Positions 9,001 to 24,000 of a stretch of 64,000 nt of DNA are shown here, piece by piece (position 1 is the stretch's first letter; each line of letters begins with the position of its first letter). This DNA is from Escherichia coli (GTDB taxonomy: Bacteria; Pseudomonadota; Gammaproteobacteria; Enterobacterales; Enterobacteriaceae), in assembly GCF_017348835.2 (NCBI RefSeq), contig NZ_CP071375.1; one strand, given 5' to 3'. The position numbers are program-made.

Positions 9001-12000
9001 TCTGCCCATCACCGGCACCACCGACGCTCAGCCGGGGCAGACGGTGACGGTTACGCTCAATGGGCAGACCTATCAGGGCGTCGTGCAGCCAGACGGCACC
9101 TGGAGCGTGACCGTTCCCGCCGCCAACGTTGACGCGCTGGCTGACGGCAACGCCACGGTGACCGCCAGCGTGAACGATGTCGCCGGTAATCCGAGCAGCG
9201 TCTCACGCGTGGCGCTGGTCGATGCCACGCCGCCGGTGGTGACCATTAATCCGGTGGCGACCGATAACGTCATTAACACGCCGGAACATATCCAGGCGCA
9301 AATTATCAGCGGCACGGTCACTGGCGCTCAGGCAGGCGATATCGTCACCATGACGCTGAATAATGTGGATTACACCACGGTGGTGGATGGTTCCGGCAAC
9401 TGGAGTCTGGGCGTTCCGGCCTCGGTGGTCAGTGGGCTGGCGGACGGCAGTTATCCTGTCAGCGTCTCGGTAACCGACAAAGCCGGAAACACGGGCAGCC
9501 AGTCATTGACCGTCACGGTCAATACCGCCGCGCCCCTTATCGGCATTAACACTATCGCGGGCGATGATGTGATTAACGCCAGCGAAAAAGGGGCCGATGT
9601 CCAGATTACCGGCACCAGCGATCAGCCTGCCAATACCGCCATCACCGTGACGCTGAACGGGCAAAATTACACCACCACGACCGACGCCTCCGGCAACTGG
9701 AGCGTCACCGTTCCGGCATCGGCGGTAACCGCACTGGGCCAGGCCAACTACACGGTAACGGCGGCGGTGACCAGCAGTATCGGCAACAGCGCCACCGCCA
9801 GCCATAACGTGCTGGTCGACAGTGCGCTCCCCGGCGTGACCATTAACCCGGTGGCAACCGACGATATTATTAACGCCGCCGAAGCGGGCGTGGCGCAAAC
9901 CATCAGCGGGCAGGTGACTGGCGCGGAAGATGGCGACACGGTAACTATTACGTTGGGTGGTAATACTTATACGGCGACGGTGGGCAGCAATCTCACCTGG
10001 AGCGTGAACGTTCCAGCGACAGATATTCAGGCGCTGGGAAATGGTGATTTAACGGTTAATGCCTCGGTCACCAATCAAAACGGCAATACCGGCAGCGGCA
10101 CGCGGGATATCACCATCGACGCTAATCTGCCCGGCCTGCGGGTCGATACGGTGGCGGGCGATGATGTGGTCAATATCATCGAGCACGGGCAGGCGCTGGT
10201 GGTCACCGGTAGCAGCTCGGGGCTGGCTGAAGGCACGCCGCTTACCGTCACGATTAATAATGTGGAATACACCACTGCGGTGCAGGCCGATGGTAGCTGG
10301 AGCGTGGGCGTAACGGCGGCGCAGGTTAGCGCCTGGCCTGCGGGGACGGTTAATATTGCCGTATCCGGGGAAAGTAGCGCCGGAAATCCGATAAGCATTA
10401 CGCATCCGGTAACGGTGGATCTCACGCCGGCGGCGATCACCATCAACACCATCGCCACGGACGACGTGATTAACGCCGCAGAAAAAGGCGCTAATTTAAC
10501 CCTTTCCGGCACCACCACTAACGTAGAACCCGGTCAAACCGTTACCGTCACCTTTGGCGGGAAAAATTACACCGCCAGCGTGGCGAGCGATGGTAGCTGG
10601 AGTGCCACCGTTCCCGCCGCCGATCTGGCAGCATTACCCGAGGGCAGCGCCTCCGCGCAGGCCAGCGTCAGCAATATCAACGGCAATAGCGCCTCGGCGG
10701 TGCATAACTACAGCGTCGACAGCAGCGCGCCAACCATCATTATCAATATCGTCGCCAGCGATAATATCGTTAACGCCAGCGAAGCCGATACTGGCGTGAC
10801 GGTGAGCGGCAGCACCACCGCCGAAGCGGGGCAGATTGTTACGATAACGCTTAACAGCCCGACCGTGCAGACGTATCAGGCAACGGTACAGGCCGATGGC
10901 AGCTGGAGTATTAATATTCCGGCGGCAGATCTTGAGGCATTGACGGATGGCAGCCACACCCTGACCGCCACGGTCAATGACAAAGCGGGTAACCCGGCGA
11001 GCACCACGCATAATCTGGCGGTGGATCTCACCGTTCCGGTACTCACCATTAACACCATTGCGGGCGACGATATTATTAACGCCGCCGAACACGGGCAGGC
11101 GCTGGTGATTTCTGGTTCCAGCACTGGCGGAGAGGCGGGAGATGTCGTCAGCGTCACGCTAAACAATAAAACCTACACCACCACCCTGGATGCCTCCGGT
11201 AACTGGAGCGTCGGCGTTCCGGCTGCGGATGTCACGGCGCTGGGTAGCGGCCCGCAAACTGTCACCGCCACCGTTACCGATGCGGCAGGTAATAGCGACA
11301 GCGAAACGCACACGGTCACCGTTAACCTTACCGCGCCGACCATTGGCATCAATATCATCGCCACCGATGACATAATTAACGCCAGCGAAAAAGGCGCGGA
11401 TCTGCAAATTTCCGGTACCAGCAATCAGCCAGCAGGCACCACAATAACGGTGACGCTGAACGGGCAAAATTACACTGCCACCACAGATGCTTCCGGCAAC
11501 TGGAGCACTACAGTGCCAGCTTCCGCTGTCGGTGCGCTGGGCGAAGCCAGCTACACGGTGACGGTGAACGTTACCGACAGCGCGGGCAACAGCAATTCCG
11601 CCAGCCATAATGTGCAGGTCAATACCGCGCTGCCTGGTGTCACCCTTAATCCGGTGGCGACCGACGATATTATTAACGCCGCCGAATCGGGCGTGGCGCA
11701 GACTATCAGCGGGCAGGTGACGGGTGCGGCGGCGGGCGATACGGTTACCGTGACGCTTGGCGGGAAAACCTACACTGCTACCGTGCAGGGGAATTTAAGC
11801 TGGAGCGTGGACGTTCCGGCGGCGGATATTCAGGCCATCGGCAATGGCGACCTGACAGTTAACGCCTCGGTCACCAACGGCGTTGGCAATACCGGCAGCG
11901 GTTCGCGAGATATTACTATCGACGCCAATTTGCCTGGCCTGCGCGTCGATACCGTGGCGGGCGATGATGTGGTCAATAGCATTGAGCACGCTCAGGCGCT

Positions 12001-21000: not shown

Positions 21001-24000
21001 CGGCTTTGCCGCAGGCACGGCGTTGACGGTGGTGATTAACAACCAAACTTACGCCGCCACGGTGTTGGCGAATGGTACCTGGAGCGTCGGCGTACCGGCG
21101 GCGGATGTCAGTAACTGGCCTGCGGGAACGCTGAATATTACCGTTAGCGGGGCGAACAGTGCCGGAACGCAAACCAGCATTACCCATCCGCTGACTGTTG
21201 ATCTCACCGCCGTCGCCATCAGCATGAACAGCATCACCAGCGATGATGTGATTAACGCCGCCGAAAAAGGCGCGGCGTTAACGCTCTCCGGCAGCACGTC
21301 CGGCGTCGAAGCGGGGCAAACCGTCACCGTCACTTTTGGCGGCAAAACCTACACCTCCACGGTGGCGGCTAACGGTAGCTGGAGTACCACCGTTCCGGCT
21401 GCGGATATGGCGGCGCTGCGTGACGGCGATGCCAGCGCCCAGGTGCGGGTGACTAACGTCAACGGCAACAGCGCCACAGCAACGCACGAATACAGCGTCG
21501 ATAGCGCCGCGCCAACGGTCACCATCAACACCATTGCCAGCGATAACATCATCAACGCCAGCGAAGCGGCGGCGGGCGTAACGGTCTCCGGCACCAGCAC
21601 GGCGCAAACGGGGCAGACGCTCACCGTCACGCTTAACGGTACTAACTACCAGACCACGATACAGGCGGACGGCAGCTGGAGCTTCACGCTGCCTGCCAGC
21701 GACTTAACCGCGCTGGCTAATAACGGCTACACCCTGACCGCTACGGTCAGCGATCTGGCGGGTAACCCTGGCAGCGCAAGCAAAGGTGTGACCGTCGATA
21801 CCACTGCGCCGGTGATCAGTTTTAACACCGTGGCGGGCGATGATGTGATTAACAACGTCGAACACACTCAGGCGCAGATTATCAGCGGCACCGCCACGGG
21901 CGCGGTGGCGGGCGACCGCCTGGTGGTGACCATCGCCGGGCAGCAGTATGTCACCAGCACCGATGCCAGCGGCAACTGGAGCGTTGGCGTGCCTGCCAGC
22001 GTAATTTCCGGCCTTGCGGACGGCACGGTAACCATCAGCGCCACCATCACCGATAGCGCAGGCAACAGCAGCACGCAGACGTACAACGTGCAGGTGAACA
22101 CGGCGGCAGTGTCGCTTTCGGTCAGCACCATCAGCGGCGATAATATTATTAACGCCGCCGAAGCAGGCAGTGCGCTGACCCTGAGCGGCACAGGAACGAA
22201 TTTTGCCGCAGGTACAGTAGTGACCGTGTTGCTTAACGGCAAAGGCTACAGCGCCACCATTCAGAGCAACGGGAGCTGGAGCGTGAACGTGCCGGCGGCA
22301 GACGTTGCGGCACTGGCGGATGGCACCAGCTATACGGTTAGCGCTTCTGCCCAGGACAGCGCCGGAAACAGCGCCACGGCTTCGCGCAGTGTGGCGGTGG
22401 ATCTCACCGCGCCGGTGATCAGCATTAACACCGTTTCGACGGATGACCGACTCAACGCCGCCGAACAACAGCAGCCGTTAACCCTTAACGGCTCGACCAG
22501 CGCGGAAGTAGGGCAGACGGTCACTGTCACCTTTGGCGGCAAAACCTATACCGCCACGGTTGCTGCCAATGGCACCTGGGCGCTGAACGTGCCTGCGGCG
22601 GATCTGGCCGCGCTCGGGCAGGGCGCGCAGACCATTACCGCCAGCGTAAACGATCGCGCCGGTAACCCCGGTCAAACCACGCACGCCCTGACCGTCGATA
22701 CCGTTGCGCCAACGGTCACCATCACCACCGTGGCGGGTGACGATATTATCAACAACGCCGAGCAGCTTGCCGGGCAGACCATTAGCGGTACCACCAACGC
22801 AGAAGTGGGCCAGACGGTGACCGTTACCTTTAACGGGCAAACCTGGACCGCAACGGTCGGCAGCGGCGGAAGCTGGTCGGTGTTTATTCCGGCGCAGCAG
22901 TTTGCCGGATTAAGCGACGGCAGCTACACCATTAGCGCGACGGTTAGCGATCAGGCCGGAAACCCCGGCAGCGCCAGCCGTGGCGTGACGCTGAACGGCG
23001 ATGTACCTACCGTCACTATCAACACCTTTGCGGGCGACGATGTAGTGAATGCAGCGGAACACGGCTCGTCGCTGGTGATCAGCGGCACCACCACCGCGCC
23101 CGTCGGGCAGACGCTGACCGTGACCTTAAACGGCAAAACCTATACCACCACGGTGCAGACGGGCGGTAGCTGGAGCTACACCCTCGGCAGCGCCGATGTC
23201 ACCGTGCTGGCGGACGGCAACGCCTACGTGATTAACGCCTCGGTGAGCAACGCTATCGGCAACACCGGCAGCAGCAATCACACCATTACCGTCGATCTCA
23301 GCGCCCCGGCGATGGGCATTAATATCGATTCCCTGCAAGCCGACACTGGCCTTAGCGCCAGCGACTTTATCACCAGCGTCAGTCCGGTGGTGGTCAACGG
23401 CTCGCTCACCGCCGCGCTTGCCAGTAACGAGACGGCGCAAATCAGTATCGACGGCGGCACAACCTGGACCACGCTTACCGTTACCGGCACGACCTGGCGC
23501 TATAACGACAGCCGCACGCTGACCGATGGCAACTATCTCTATCAGGTGCGGGTGATTGACGCAGCGGGCAACGTCGGTGCCACCGACAGCCAGAATGTGG
23601 TGATCGACACTACCGCGCCAGATCCAGCAGTGAAAACCATCGCCATTAGCGCGATCACTACCGATACGGGCCTGATCGCTAATGATTTTGTCACCAGCGA
23701 TACGACGCTTGCGGTGAGCGGCACGTTGGGCGCGGCGCTTTCTGCCGGTGAATTCGCGCAAATCAGCATCGATGGCGGCACCACCTGGCAGAATCTTTCG
23801 ATAAGCGGTTTGACCTGGAGCTATCTTGACGGGCGGACGCTGACCGATGGCAACTACAACTACCAGGTGCGGGTGATCGACACCGCCGGAAATATCGGCG
23901 CGACCGCCAGCCAGATAGTCACCGTGGATACCACCGCGCCGCTGGCGAGCAAAACCATCGCCATTGCGGGCGTCAGCGATGACACCGGGTTAAGCAGCAG

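What the first reader, a model, noticed from the sequence alone, without database searches (positions are those of the whole stretch)
9530..22100. Seven tandem ~1.8 kb super-repeats, each six Ig-like modules, make up the adhesin stalk
Beyond the ~300-bp (100-aa) periodicity there is a higher-order ~1,797-1,800-bp period: six distinct module types recur in fixed order seven times. Units differ by roughly 10-15% at the nucleotide level by eye. Such arrays are hot spots for unequal recombination, so stalk length probably varies between strains, and they collapse easily in short-read assemblies.
Basis: seen in the sequence. Interest (0 to 1): 0.55.

Follow-up and report, generated by a model that had tools for sequence, protein, structure and literature searches.

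The report
Six-module super-repeat in SiiEA adhesin stalk
The long stalk of a known giant E. coli surface adhesin (SiiEA, O-island 28) really is built from seven copies of a block of six different Ig-like modules. The copies are old, well diverged and stable between strains rather than a fast-changing repeat, and in this strain an IS4 insertion has broken the gene.

Summary
Window 9533-22108 holds 42 modules of about 100 aa, of six types in the fixed order ABCDEF, repeated seven times (units of 1794-1803 bp). A degenerate half unit (D0E0F0) lies just upstream at 8636-9532.

The gene is siiEA, the "BapA-related adhesin SiiEA" of EHEC O-island 28. It is a type I-secreted giant adhesin lying between ybaT and cueR, next to its own TolC-like, ABC and HlyD genes. 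The modules are homologous to the Ca2+-stabilised extender domains of RTX adhesins (PDB 4P99). In this strain (100% identical to E. coli PE164) an IS4 insertion at 24319-25744 splits the gene.

- Units differ by 23-32% in DNA, not 10-15%. Synonymous divergence between units is about 0.8-1.2.
- The longest exact repeat in the array is 35 bp.
- Each unit is a positional orthologue across Escherichia.
- Of about 958 complete genomes carrying the gene, about 59% keep seven full units. 32% (the O157:H7 type) lack one module, 9% lack exactly one unit through an in-register deletion, and 3% have three extra modules.

The ABCDEF order also recurs in the five genera I module-typed: Enterobacter, Lelliottia, Pluralibacter, Cedecea and Edaphovirga. 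This is a known gene with a modestly interesting, apparently undescribed architecture.

The parts
5462..6817 (+). TolC-family outer-membrane component of the island's type I secretion system
   Evidence: TIGR01844 at 416 bits, cut-off 225. RefSeq annotation agrees.
6920..24318 (+). siiEA, 5' fragment. The mechanical ORF runs on to 24346, reading into IS4.
   Evidence: NF047714 adhesin_SiiEA at 512 bits, cut-off 425. RefSeq marks it as a pseudogene missing its C-terminus. Comparison with the intact O145:H28 allele places the break at 24318.
6920..7738 (+). N-terminal BapA-type prefix domain, a hydrophobic Gly/Ala-rich stretch and the first Ig domain (presumed cell-surface retention end)
   Evidence: PF22783 BapA_N, E 1.6e-19; Big_6 and Big_13 also hit. 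NF033677 hits.
7739..8635 (+). Extender modules n1-n3, not part of the six-type scheme
   Evidence: Best identity to any other module is 0.65 or less, with no consistent type.
8636..9532 (+). Modules n4-n6, a degenerate half unit D0-E0-F0. The matching A0-B0-C0 modules are present in PCN033-type alleles and in Escherichia sp. E1V33.
   Evidence: Amino-acid identity is highest to types D (0.51), E (0.51) and F (0.56). Extra A/B/C-like modules precede them in L008 and L009.
9533..11335 (+). Super-repeat unit 1 (A1-F1), 1803 bp
11336..13129 (+). Super-repeat unit 2, 1794 bp
   Evidence: AlphaFold2 model with pLDDT 92.2 shows six beta-sandwich domains.
13130..14923 (+). Super-repeat unit 3, 1794 bp
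14924..16723 (+). Super-repeat unit 4, 1800 bp. Its A module is the most divergent and is deleted in the O157:H7 allele.
16724..18517 (+). Super-repeat unit 5, 1794 bp
18518..20314 (+). Super-repeat unit 6, 1797 bp
20315..22108 (+). Super-repeat unit 7, 1794 bp
22109..23305 (+). Extender modules c1-c4, same domain family but outside the six-type scheme
23306..24318 (+). A second kind of ~100-aa Ig-like repeat (DTG-x-S-x-SDF type), interrupted by the IS
   Evidence: Read directly from the translation. Weak Ca_tandemer hit, 3 stretches.
24319..25744 (+). IS4 insertion, 1426 bp (transposase 24403-25731). Flanked by a 13-bp target duplication, GAGCCAGCAGCAG, at 24306-24318 and 25745-25757.
   Evidence: NF033592 IS4 transposase at 305 bits. 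Break points and duplication found by comparison with the intact allele. RefSeq annotation agrees.
25745..29136 (+). siiEA, 3' fragment: three Big_13 domains, FG-GAP-like repeats (candidate ligand-binding propeller), RTX nonapeptide repeats and the type I secretion C-terminal target domain
   Evidence: Pfam hits. TIGR03661 at 34 bits, cut-off 17.6. RefSeq marks it as a fragment missing its N-terminus.
29140..31302 (+). LssB-type type I secretion ABC permease/ATPase
   Evidence: TIGR03375 at 838 bits, cut-off 693.
31299..32474 (+). HlyD-family periplasmic adaptor
   Evidence: TIGR01843 at 330 bits, cut-off 209.

Best explanation
Window 9533-22108 is the core of the extender (stalk) of SiiEA, a type I-secreted giant adhesin of the BapA/RTX kind encoded on E. 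coli O-island 28.

**What it is (shown).** The stalk is a chain of ~100-aa Ig-like beta-sandwich modules. The middle 42 are organised as seven copies of a six-module block, ABCDEF.

**How it works (inferred from homology to MpIBP region II, PDB 4P99).**
- After export, each module folds outside the cell.
- Ca2+ bound at the acidic inter-module linkers (the conserved DD-x-x-N-x-x-E anchor) stiffens the chain into a rod.
- At about 4.5-4.7 nm per module, the 42 modules span roughly 190-200 nm and one block about 28 nm.
- The rod holds the C-terminal FG-GAP/RTX region away from the cell, while the N-terminal BapA-type prefix stays at the outer membrane.

**How it evolved.**
- The six-module block is the unit of evolution. 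It arose once, was amplified long ago, and has since changed mainly by rare in-register gain or loss of whole blocks.
- The cyclic order therefore persists across genera without needing selection for order.
- The copies are now too divergent in DNA (68-77% identity) for frequent homologous recombination, so the array is stable within Escherichia.

**In this strain.** IS4 separates the stalk from the secretion signal, so the adhesin cannot be exported as one protein.
For: - **Periodicity and typing:**
- **Identity of the gene:** NF047714 at 512 bits against a cut-off of 425. RefSeq names it siiEA in 962 of 5426 complete genomes. The OI-28 paper PMC12758282 reports adherence and colonisation defects in deletion mutants.
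- **Module family:** NF033510 Ca_tandemer gives six stretches per unit, 545 bits. Pfam Big_13 hits. phmmer to 4P99 gives E 2.6e-53, with 5IRB and 6XI3 also hit. The AlphaFold2 model has pLDDT 92.2 and six seven-stranded sandwiches. The best Foldseek hits are 4P99, 5IRB, 6XI3 and 6XI1.
- **Rod dimensions and Ca2+ rigidification** for the homologue: PMC4083281.
- **Age and stability:**
  - dS between units is 0.84-1.22, with dN/dS 0.17-0.28.
  - Positional orthology holds in O145:H28 and Escherichia sp. E1V33.
  - The longest exact repeat is 35 bp.
  - Inter-unit conversion tracts are rare.
- **Unit-wise change:** the six-unit allele has an in-register breakpoint.
- **Conservation across genera:**
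  - The 1791-1797 bp lag dominates in Lelliottia, Enterobacter, Huaxiibacter, Cedecea, Pluralibacter and Edaphovirga.
  - Cyclic ABCDEF typing holds there.
  - 29 blocks from 6 genera align with 71% mean column identity.
- **IS4:**
Against: - No experiment here shows Ca2+ binding, rod shape or length dependence for SiiEA itself. All of that is transferred from MpIBP and AhLap homologues.
- Out-of-register changes also exist, so the block is not the only unit of change. One module (A4) is lost in O157:H7, and three modules (A0-C0) are present or absent between alleles.
- In other genera the blocks resemble their own paralogues (70-94% aa) more than any E. coli block (50-75%). Turnover or homogenisation therefore does occur on longer time scales.
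- Only the first 10 kb of those genes could be read.
- Four of the seven alleles I inspected (five alleles from other E. coli, the cryptic-clade Escherichia, and this window's own) are annotated as pseudogenes. That raises doubt about how often the full-length stalk is made.
Confidence: 0.85

Rival explanations
1. The array is a recently amplified, recombination-prone repeat (a contingency-type locus). Its unit number changes often between strains, tuning stalk length.
For: - One in-register whole-unit deletion allele exists in 86 of 955 genomes.
- Other length classes exist.
- In other genera the units look partly homogenised, with own paralogues up to 94% identical.
Against: - dS between units is 0.84-1.22.
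- No exact repeat exceeds 35 bp.
- Each length variant shows a single junction sequence in the genomes that carry it, which suggests one event each.
- 33 of 60 evenly sampled genomes are colinear, with spans equal to within 7 bp.
- Positional orthology holds across Escherichia.
Confidence: 0.08
2. The six-module block is a functional structural super-repeat kept by selection, in the manner of titin's super-repeats. For example, each type might have its own role or binding partner. Alternatively, dissimilar neighbouring modules might prevent misfolding between adjacent domains during folding outside the cell.
For: - Type order and type-specific residues are conserved in six genera: 15-20 invariant columns per type across 29 blocks.
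- dN/dS is 0.08-0.28.
- Adjacent modules are only 38-51% identical in protein, while same-type modules are 65-79% identical.
Against: - In-register homologous recombination preserves order on its own, without selection.
- Alleles lacking one module or three modules exist.
- The homologous MpIBP stalk works with about 120 identical neighbouring repeats (PMC4083281), so dissimilar neighbours are not a general requirement.
Confidence: 0.25
3. The higher-order period is an assembly artefact, with repeats wrongly expanded or ordered.
For: None was found for this window. Draft assemblies of relatives often end inside the array.
Against: - The window is 100% identical to a complete genome.
- The same order and length recur in hundreds of independently assembled complete genomes that differ by 5-6% in sequence.
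- The reading frame stays open for 5808 codons.
Confidence: 0.01

Closest known systems
SiiEA / O-island 28 adhesin of E. coli (Z0609-Z0615 in EDL933; NCBIfam NF047714; Niu et al. 2025, PMC12758282)
   Same: It is this gene. The locus is the same (ybaT to cueR), the flanking TolC/ABC/HlyD genes are the same, and the N-terminal model scores above its cut-off.
   Different: - The published work treats the O157:H7 split gene as two RTX proteins carrying "Ig-like repeats". It does not describe the six-module block or its seven copies; the word "tandem" does not occur in the paper.
- This strain's copy is broken by IS4.
Region II extender of the Marinomonas primoryensis ice-binding adhesin (PDB 4P99) and the AhLap extender (6XI3, 6XI1)
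   Same: The domain family and fold are the same, and the acidic linker motif is the same. They are the best sequence and structure matches. The presumed role is also the same: a Ca2+-stiffened spacer in a type I-secreted adhesin.
   Different: MpIBP has about 120 repeats that are identical even in DNA. Here there are six diverged types in fixed order, with copies 23-32% apart in DNA.
Multi-extender patterns in RTX adhesins (bioRxiv 10.1101/2025.09.30.679566)
   Same: That survey describes runs of near-identical extenders, pairs of dissimilar extenders repeated in series, and "more complex patterns". The block described here is a pattern of the same kind.
   Different: Here the period is six, all copies are below about 80% identity, and the order is conserved across genera. 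E. coli SiiEA is not among the adhesins covered there.
Salmonella SiiE (SPI-4) and BapA (SPI-9)
   Same: Both are giant type I-secreted adhesins built from tens of bacterial Ig domains. SiiE is reported to be genetically stable despite its repeats (PMC6272769). The N-terminal prefix of SiiEA is of the BapA type.
   Different: - Despite its name, SiiEA is called "BapA-related" by NCBI.
- No SiiE structure appeared among the sequence matches to solved structures at E <= 0.01.
- No siiA/siiB-like genes lie in the island.
- I did not test whether BapA has a six-module period.
Titin Ig/Fn3 super-repeats (from general knowledge)
   Same: Fixed-order blocks of several different Ig-type domains are repeated in series within a rod-like protein.
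   Different: Titin is eukaryotic, unrelated in sequence and intracellular, and its super-repeats match the periodicity of the thick filament. No periodic partner is known for SiiEA.

Membership tests
SiiEA (NCBIfam NF047714, BapA-related adhesin SiiEA) | The N-terminal 229-residue model scores above the curated cut-off of 425 bits | tested here: met
   512.3 bits over residues 1-230.
SiiEA (NCBIfam NF047714, BapA-related adhesin SiiEA) | Chromosomal position between ybaT and cueR, with a dedicated type I secretion system | tested here: met
   The context is the same in all six annotated genomes inspected.
Type I-secreted RTX/Bap-type fibrillar adhesin | N-terminal retention or prefix domain | tested here: met
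   PF22783 BapA_N with E 1.6e-19; NF033677 at 70 bits. Actual retention at the surface was not tested.
Type I-secreted RTX/Bap-type fibrillar adhesin | Long extender of tandem bacterial Ig-like domains | tested here: met
   52 modules. NF033510 gives six stretches per unit. Supported by the 4P99 sequence match, the AlphaFold2 model and Foldseek.
Type I-secreted RTX/Bap-type fibrillar adhesin | C-terminal RTX nonapeptide repeats and an uncleaved secretion signal | tested here: met
   PF00353 with E 2e-4; TIGR03661 at 34 bits against a cut-off of 17.6. Both lie on the fragment downstream of IS4, so they are no longer joined to the stalk in this strain.
Type I-secreted RTX/Bap-type fibrillar adhesin | [quoted passage not shown] | tested here: met
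   TIGR03375, TIGR01843 and TIGR01844 all score above their cut-offs.
Type I-secreted RTX/Bap-type fibrillar adhesin | Ca2+-dependent folding and stiffening of the extender | not testable with these tools
   Inferred from homology to 4P99 and conservation of the acidic anchor motif.
LapA-type adhesin with LapG/LapD-controlled release | Conserved di-alanine LapG cleavage motif in the N-terminal region, together with lapG/lapD genes | tested here: not met
   A TAAG motif occurs at residues 97-100 but is not conserved in orthologues from other genera. No lapG/lapD-like gene is annotated in the island or elsewhere in the window.
Higher-order (super-) tandem repeat | Several distinct module types recur in a fixed order, and same-type copies are more alike than neighbouring modules | tested here: met
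   42 of 42 nearest neighbours are of the same type. Within-type median identity is 0.73 against 0.59 between types.
Recombination-prone variable-number repeat (contingency-type locus) | Long stretches of identical sequence between copies | tested here: not met
   The longest exact repeat is 35 bp, and units are 68-77% identical.
Recombination-prone variable-number repeat (contingency-type locus) | Frequent, independent copy-number differences between related strains | tested here: not met
   Only 6 or 7 units were seen. The six-unit junction is a single sequence found in 86 genomes. 33 of 60 sampled genomes have the same length to within 7 bp. Not every genome was typed.

The most novel reading that the evidence does not exclude
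The six-module block is not just a fossil of how the gene grew. On this reading it is a selected structural period of the stalk, conserved across Enterobacterales for a functional reason. The reason could be a defined twist or bend every ~28 nm, type-specific contacts with host or matrix ligands, or prevention of misfolding between neighbouring domains during co-secretional folding. That would make it a bacterial counterpart of titin-like super-repeats.
Probability: 0.2. Interest if true: 0.55.

Novelty: new member of a known kind. Interest (0 to 1): 0.33.

Why it matters
**Practical points**
- The array is stable and nearly unique in sequence, so it can be assembled and typed. Module typing separates four E. 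coli length classes of 46, 51, 52 and 55 modules, which could serve as lineage markers.
- Many alleles of this reported colonisation factor are interrupted, including this one and, according to RefSeq, the O157:H7 allele. That matters when interpreting functional studies of O-island 28.

**Conceptual point**
A giant repeat protein can stay genetically stable because its copies have drifted to about 70% DNA identity. That is the same level that experimenters chose when recoding the identical MpIBP repeats to stop recombination in E. coli. The fixed six-type order conserved across genera offers a defined test: does module order matter for folding or function of fibrillar adhesins?

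Tried and rejected
- **Tandem Repeats Finder** found nothing. Its longest period is 500 bp and the 300-bp copies are too divergent, so this says nothing against the repeat.
- **Three-module sub-period.** The lag-897 signal suggested A~D, B~E, C~F. It is barely above background once modules are aligned (0.61 against 0.59), so I do not claim it.
- **Length distribution from the protein database.** A search with the N-terminus returned only short contig-end fragments. I used junction-specific DNA searches instead.
- **Diversifying selection.** Rejected: dN/dS is 0.08-0.17 between alleles and 0.17-0.28 between units.
- **Paralogue origin of allelic differences.** 71-75% of allelic differences carry a base found in a paralogous unit, against 48-49% expected under random substitution. 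This is suggestive, but the window-based test found only 0-2 short tracts per allele. I therefore rate inter-unit conversion as rare.
- **A failed calculation.** A protein-guided alignment of the whole array misaligned the repeats and gave meaningless dN/dS. I redid it ungapped.
- **LapG-type release.** Considered because of a TAAG motif, then set aside because the motif is not conserved and no lapG/lapD gene is present.

Full report
**1. The observation**

The region lies inside a 5808-codon ORF, 6920-24346 on the + strand.
- Base identity as a function of lag peaks at 1794 bp (0.48), above the 300-bp module period (0.43). Further peaks fall at about 2, 3, 4 and 5 times 1795 bp.
- Local profiles show 65-87% identity at these lags between about 10.8 and 22 kb.
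- Tandem Repeats Finder reported nothing. Its maximum period is 500 bp and neighbouring 300-bp modules are only about 59% identical.
- A conserved motif (D-D-[IV]-[IV]-N-x-x-E) marks 52 modules of 99-102 aa.

All-against-all alignment settles the matter.
- For every one of modules 7-48, the most similar module is 6, 12, 18... positions away: 42 of 42. By chance this would be about 9e-36.
- Same-type modules share 61-86% of bases (median 73%). Different types share 49-67% (median 59%).
- The seven units are 9533-11335, 11336-13129, 13130-14923, 14924-16723, 16724-18517, 18518-20314 and 20315-22108.

Two corrections follow.
- Units are 68-77% identical in DNA and 64-80% in protein, so 23-32% divergent rather than 10-15%.
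- The three modules just upstream (8636-9532) are weakly D-, E- and F-like. In some alleles they are preceded by A-, B- and C-like modules. They are therefore the remains of a degenerate "unit 0".

**2. What the gene is**

- The window is 100% identical to E. coli PE164, a pig isolate. RefSeq calls the gene siiEA, "BapA-related adhesin SiiEA".
- Its N-terminus scores 512 bits on NCBIfam NF047714, against a cut-off of 425.
- It lies between ybaT and cueR with its own secretion genes: a TolC-family protein (5462-6817), an LssB-type ABC transporter (29140-31302) and a HlyD adaptor (31299-32474).
- This is O-island 28 of EHEC. A 2025 paper reports that deletion of the island or of its genes lowers adherence and mouse colonisation, and that RstA and Ca2+ activate it (PMC12758282). 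That paper speaks only of "Ig-like repeats" and does not describe a higher-order period.
- The intact seven-unit gene is 20,778 bp, or 6925 codons.
- Its architecture, from N to C terminus:
  - a BapA-type prefix;
  - 52 extender modules;
  - a second kind of Ig-like repeat;
  - FG-GAP-like repeats;
  - RTX nonapeptides;
  - a type I secretion target domain.

**3. In this strain the gene is broken**

Comparison with the intact O145:H28 allele shows a 1426-bp IS4 at 24319-25744. It is flanked by a 13-bp target duplication, GAGCCAGCAGCAG. The stalk is thus cut off from the C-terminal secretion signal.

**4. What the modules are**

- Each unit gives six matches to NF033510, "Ca2+-stabilized repeat-containing adhesin" (545 bits), and to Pfam Big_13.
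- The closest solved structures by sequence are the region II tetra-tandemer of the Marinomonas ice-binding adhesin (4P99, E 2.6e-53), 5IRB and the Aeromonas Lap extender 6XI3.
- An AlphaFold2 model of unit 2 was built on an alignment of 29 blocks from six genera. It has mean pLDDT 92.2 and shows six seven-stranded beta-sandwiches in series. Foldseek returns the same RTX-adhesin extenders first.
- For 4P99, four repeats form a rod of about 190 Å that is rigid only with Ca2+ bound between repeats (PMC4083281).
- By inference, the 42 modules here would span about 190-200 nm and one block about 28 nm. The conserved acidic anchor would be the Ca2+-binding linker. None of this was measured for SiiEA.

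**5. Is it a recombination hot spot with variable length?**

Mostly not.

*(a) Sequence and divergence*
- The longest exact repeat inside the array is 35 bp, and only eight reach 27 bp.
- Synonymous divergence between units is 0.84-1.22 with dN/dS 0.17-0.28. The copies are therefore old and each is under purifying selection.

*(b) Positional orthology*
- In O145:H28 every module best matches its positional counterpart, at 85-99% nucleotide identity.
- The same holds at 91-98% amino-acid identity for units 1-4 (the part within reach) of a cryptic-clade Escherichia.

*(c) Length across genomes*
- In an evenly spaced sample of 60 of the 962 genomes with the gene, 33 align to the window in one piece. 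Their spans are 18,856-18,863 bp, against 18,885 bp for the identical PE164 record itself.

*(d) Inter-unit conversion*
- A 60-nt sliding comparison found only 0-2 short tracts per allele where a unit looks like another unit.

Length variants do exist, but they are few, and each junction occurs as a single sequence in the genomes carrying it.
- **Six-unit allele** (18,975 bp, intact). It lacks exactly E3-F3-A4-B4-C4-D4. The switch from unit 3 to unit 4 is clean and lies 15-40 nt into the E module, at the conserved anchor. This junction occurs at 99% identity or more in 86 of 955 genomes, with none between 95 and 99%.
- **O157:H7 allele.** It lacks one 300-bp module, A4. Its junction is found at 99% or more in 304 genomes.
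- **Alleles with A0-B0-C0.** 27 genomes carry these three extra modules.
- **One calf strain** has a 51-bp deletion in A6.

Stalks therefore have 52 modules in roughly 56% of carriers, 51 in 32%, 46 in 9% and 55 in 3%. Unit number was 6 or 7 in everything I examined. The census is incomplete because only sampled rows and junction counts were available.

The review of Salmonella SiiE notes similar stability despite repetitiveness (PMC6272769). The makers of the 4P99 construct recoded identical repeats to about 70% DNA identity precisely to stop recombination in E. coli. That is the level the natural SiiEA units have reached.

**6. Assembly behaviour**

With no repeat above 35 bp, collapse is not expected for E. 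coli with usual k-mer sizes.
- Fragmentation does occur. The protein database holds many N-terminal fragments of 259-474 aa from contig ends.
- Several draft genomes of related genera end inside the array. In those genera the paralogues reach 90% identity or more.
- A low-coverage E. whittamii contig joins modules n1, n2 and an n3-like module to c3-c4 with no array between them, and has an early stop. I cannot tell whether this is a deletion or a collapse.

**7. Beyond E. coli**

A scan of one genome per species with an N-terminal alignment found 40 loci.
- Among the loci with at least 5 kb of sequence downstream of the N-terminus, a lag of 1791-1797 bp is the strongest, or second to its double, in Lelliottia, Enterobacter, Huaxiibacter, Cedecea, Pluralibacter and Edaphovirga.
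- Rosenbergiella shows 2694 bp (nine modules) and Pseudocitrobacter shows little periodicity.
- Typing against the E. coli types gives an unbroken cyclic ABCDEF order in E. cloacae, Edaphovirga and Pluralibacter. Cedecea and Lelliottia show the same order through the body of the array, with a few modules unresolved at the edges of the readable stretch.
- In those genera, blocks resemble their own paralogues (70-94% aa) more than any E. coli block (50-75%). Turnover or homogenisation therefore acts on longer time scales.
- Some sub-variants are nevertheless shared. Two E. cloacae A modules specifically match the divergent E. coli A4 and A6.
- Across 29 blocks from six genera, each type keeps 15-20 invariant columns.

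**8. Interpretation**

The best-supported account has four parts.
- An ancestral six-module block was amplified.
- It has since been inherited with rare in-register gain or loss.
- Recombination between like types preserves order automatically.
- Divergence of the copies now protects the array from further recombination.

Whether the six types are also kept for a structural or functional reason is open. Low dN/dS and type-specific conservation fit that idea. So do the dissimilar neighbours: adjacent modules are 38-51% identical in protein, against 65-79% for same-type modules. Against it, the tolerance of one- and three-module indels shows that strict order is not essential. The identical-repeat stalk of MpIBP also shows that dissimilar neighbours are not a general requirement.

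**9. Novelty**

The gene, its family, its secretion system and the extender role of such modules are all known. Repeating multi-extender patterns, such as pairs and "more complex patterns", are also described for RTX adhesins (bioRxiv 10.1101/2025.09.30.679566).

The specific seven-by-six architecture of SiiEA, its age, its positional orthology and its conservation across genera were not described in any paper I could find in the library. I rate it a further example of a known kind, of modest interest.

Noticed in passing
window 24319-25744 (target duplication at 24306-24318 and 25745-25757): A complete 1426-bp IS4 with a 13-bp target-site duplication splits siiEA. The stalk is separated from the RTX repeats and the secretion signal, so this strain's copy is a pseudogene.
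   Followed up: yes
L002, L003/L005 and L008 (the siiEA genes): RefSeq annotates the O145:H28, O157:H7 and PCN033 alleles as pseudogenes (internal stop or frameshift). A 2025 paper treats the two O157:H7 pieces, Z0609 and Z0615, as two functional RTX adhesins. It is unclear how a fragment lacking the C-terminal signal would be secreted.
   Followed up: partly
window 5462-7738 compared with 9533-32474, against L002: Between PE164 and O145:H28, the TolC-like gene and the siiEA N-terminus are nearly identical (dS about 0.02). From the array through the ABC and HlyD genes, dS is 0.16-0.26. The island is therefore a recombinational mosaic with a breakpoint near the start of the stalk.
   Followed up: partly
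L015 (Escherichia whittamii) 10001-13245: This contig goes from modules n1, n2 and an n3-like module almost directly to c3-c4 and the C-terminal region. It has no seven-unit array and an early stop codon. It could be a real deletion or a collapse in an 8.6x short-read assembly.
   Followed up: partly
L020 (E. coli SCPM-O-B-8794) 10415-11564: Only a remnant of the island is left. A deletion runs from the early stalk (window ~8501) into the ABC transporter gene (window ~30991).
   Followed up: no
L034, L036 and L038 (Rosenbergiella): The strongest period is 2694 bp, nine modules rather than six. Module typing shows partly irregular order.
   Followed up: no
window 7208-7219 (residues 97-100): A TAAG motif resembling the LapG cleavage site of LapA lies after the BapA-type prefix. 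It is not conserved in orthologues from other genera, and no lapG/lapD gene is annotated in the window.
   Followed up: partly
window 33590-34606 (- strand): A small gene (338 aa) for a protein with a YadA C-terminal domain, a trimeric autotransporter-type adhesin. It sits two small ORFs beyond cueR, next to the island.
   Followed up: no
window 25747-29133 (residues ~470-765 of the 3' fragment): Three to four FG-GAP-like repeats lie between the last Ig-like domains and the RTX repeats. They may form a beta-propeller that is the ligand-binding part of the adhesin. No ligand is known.
   Followed up: no
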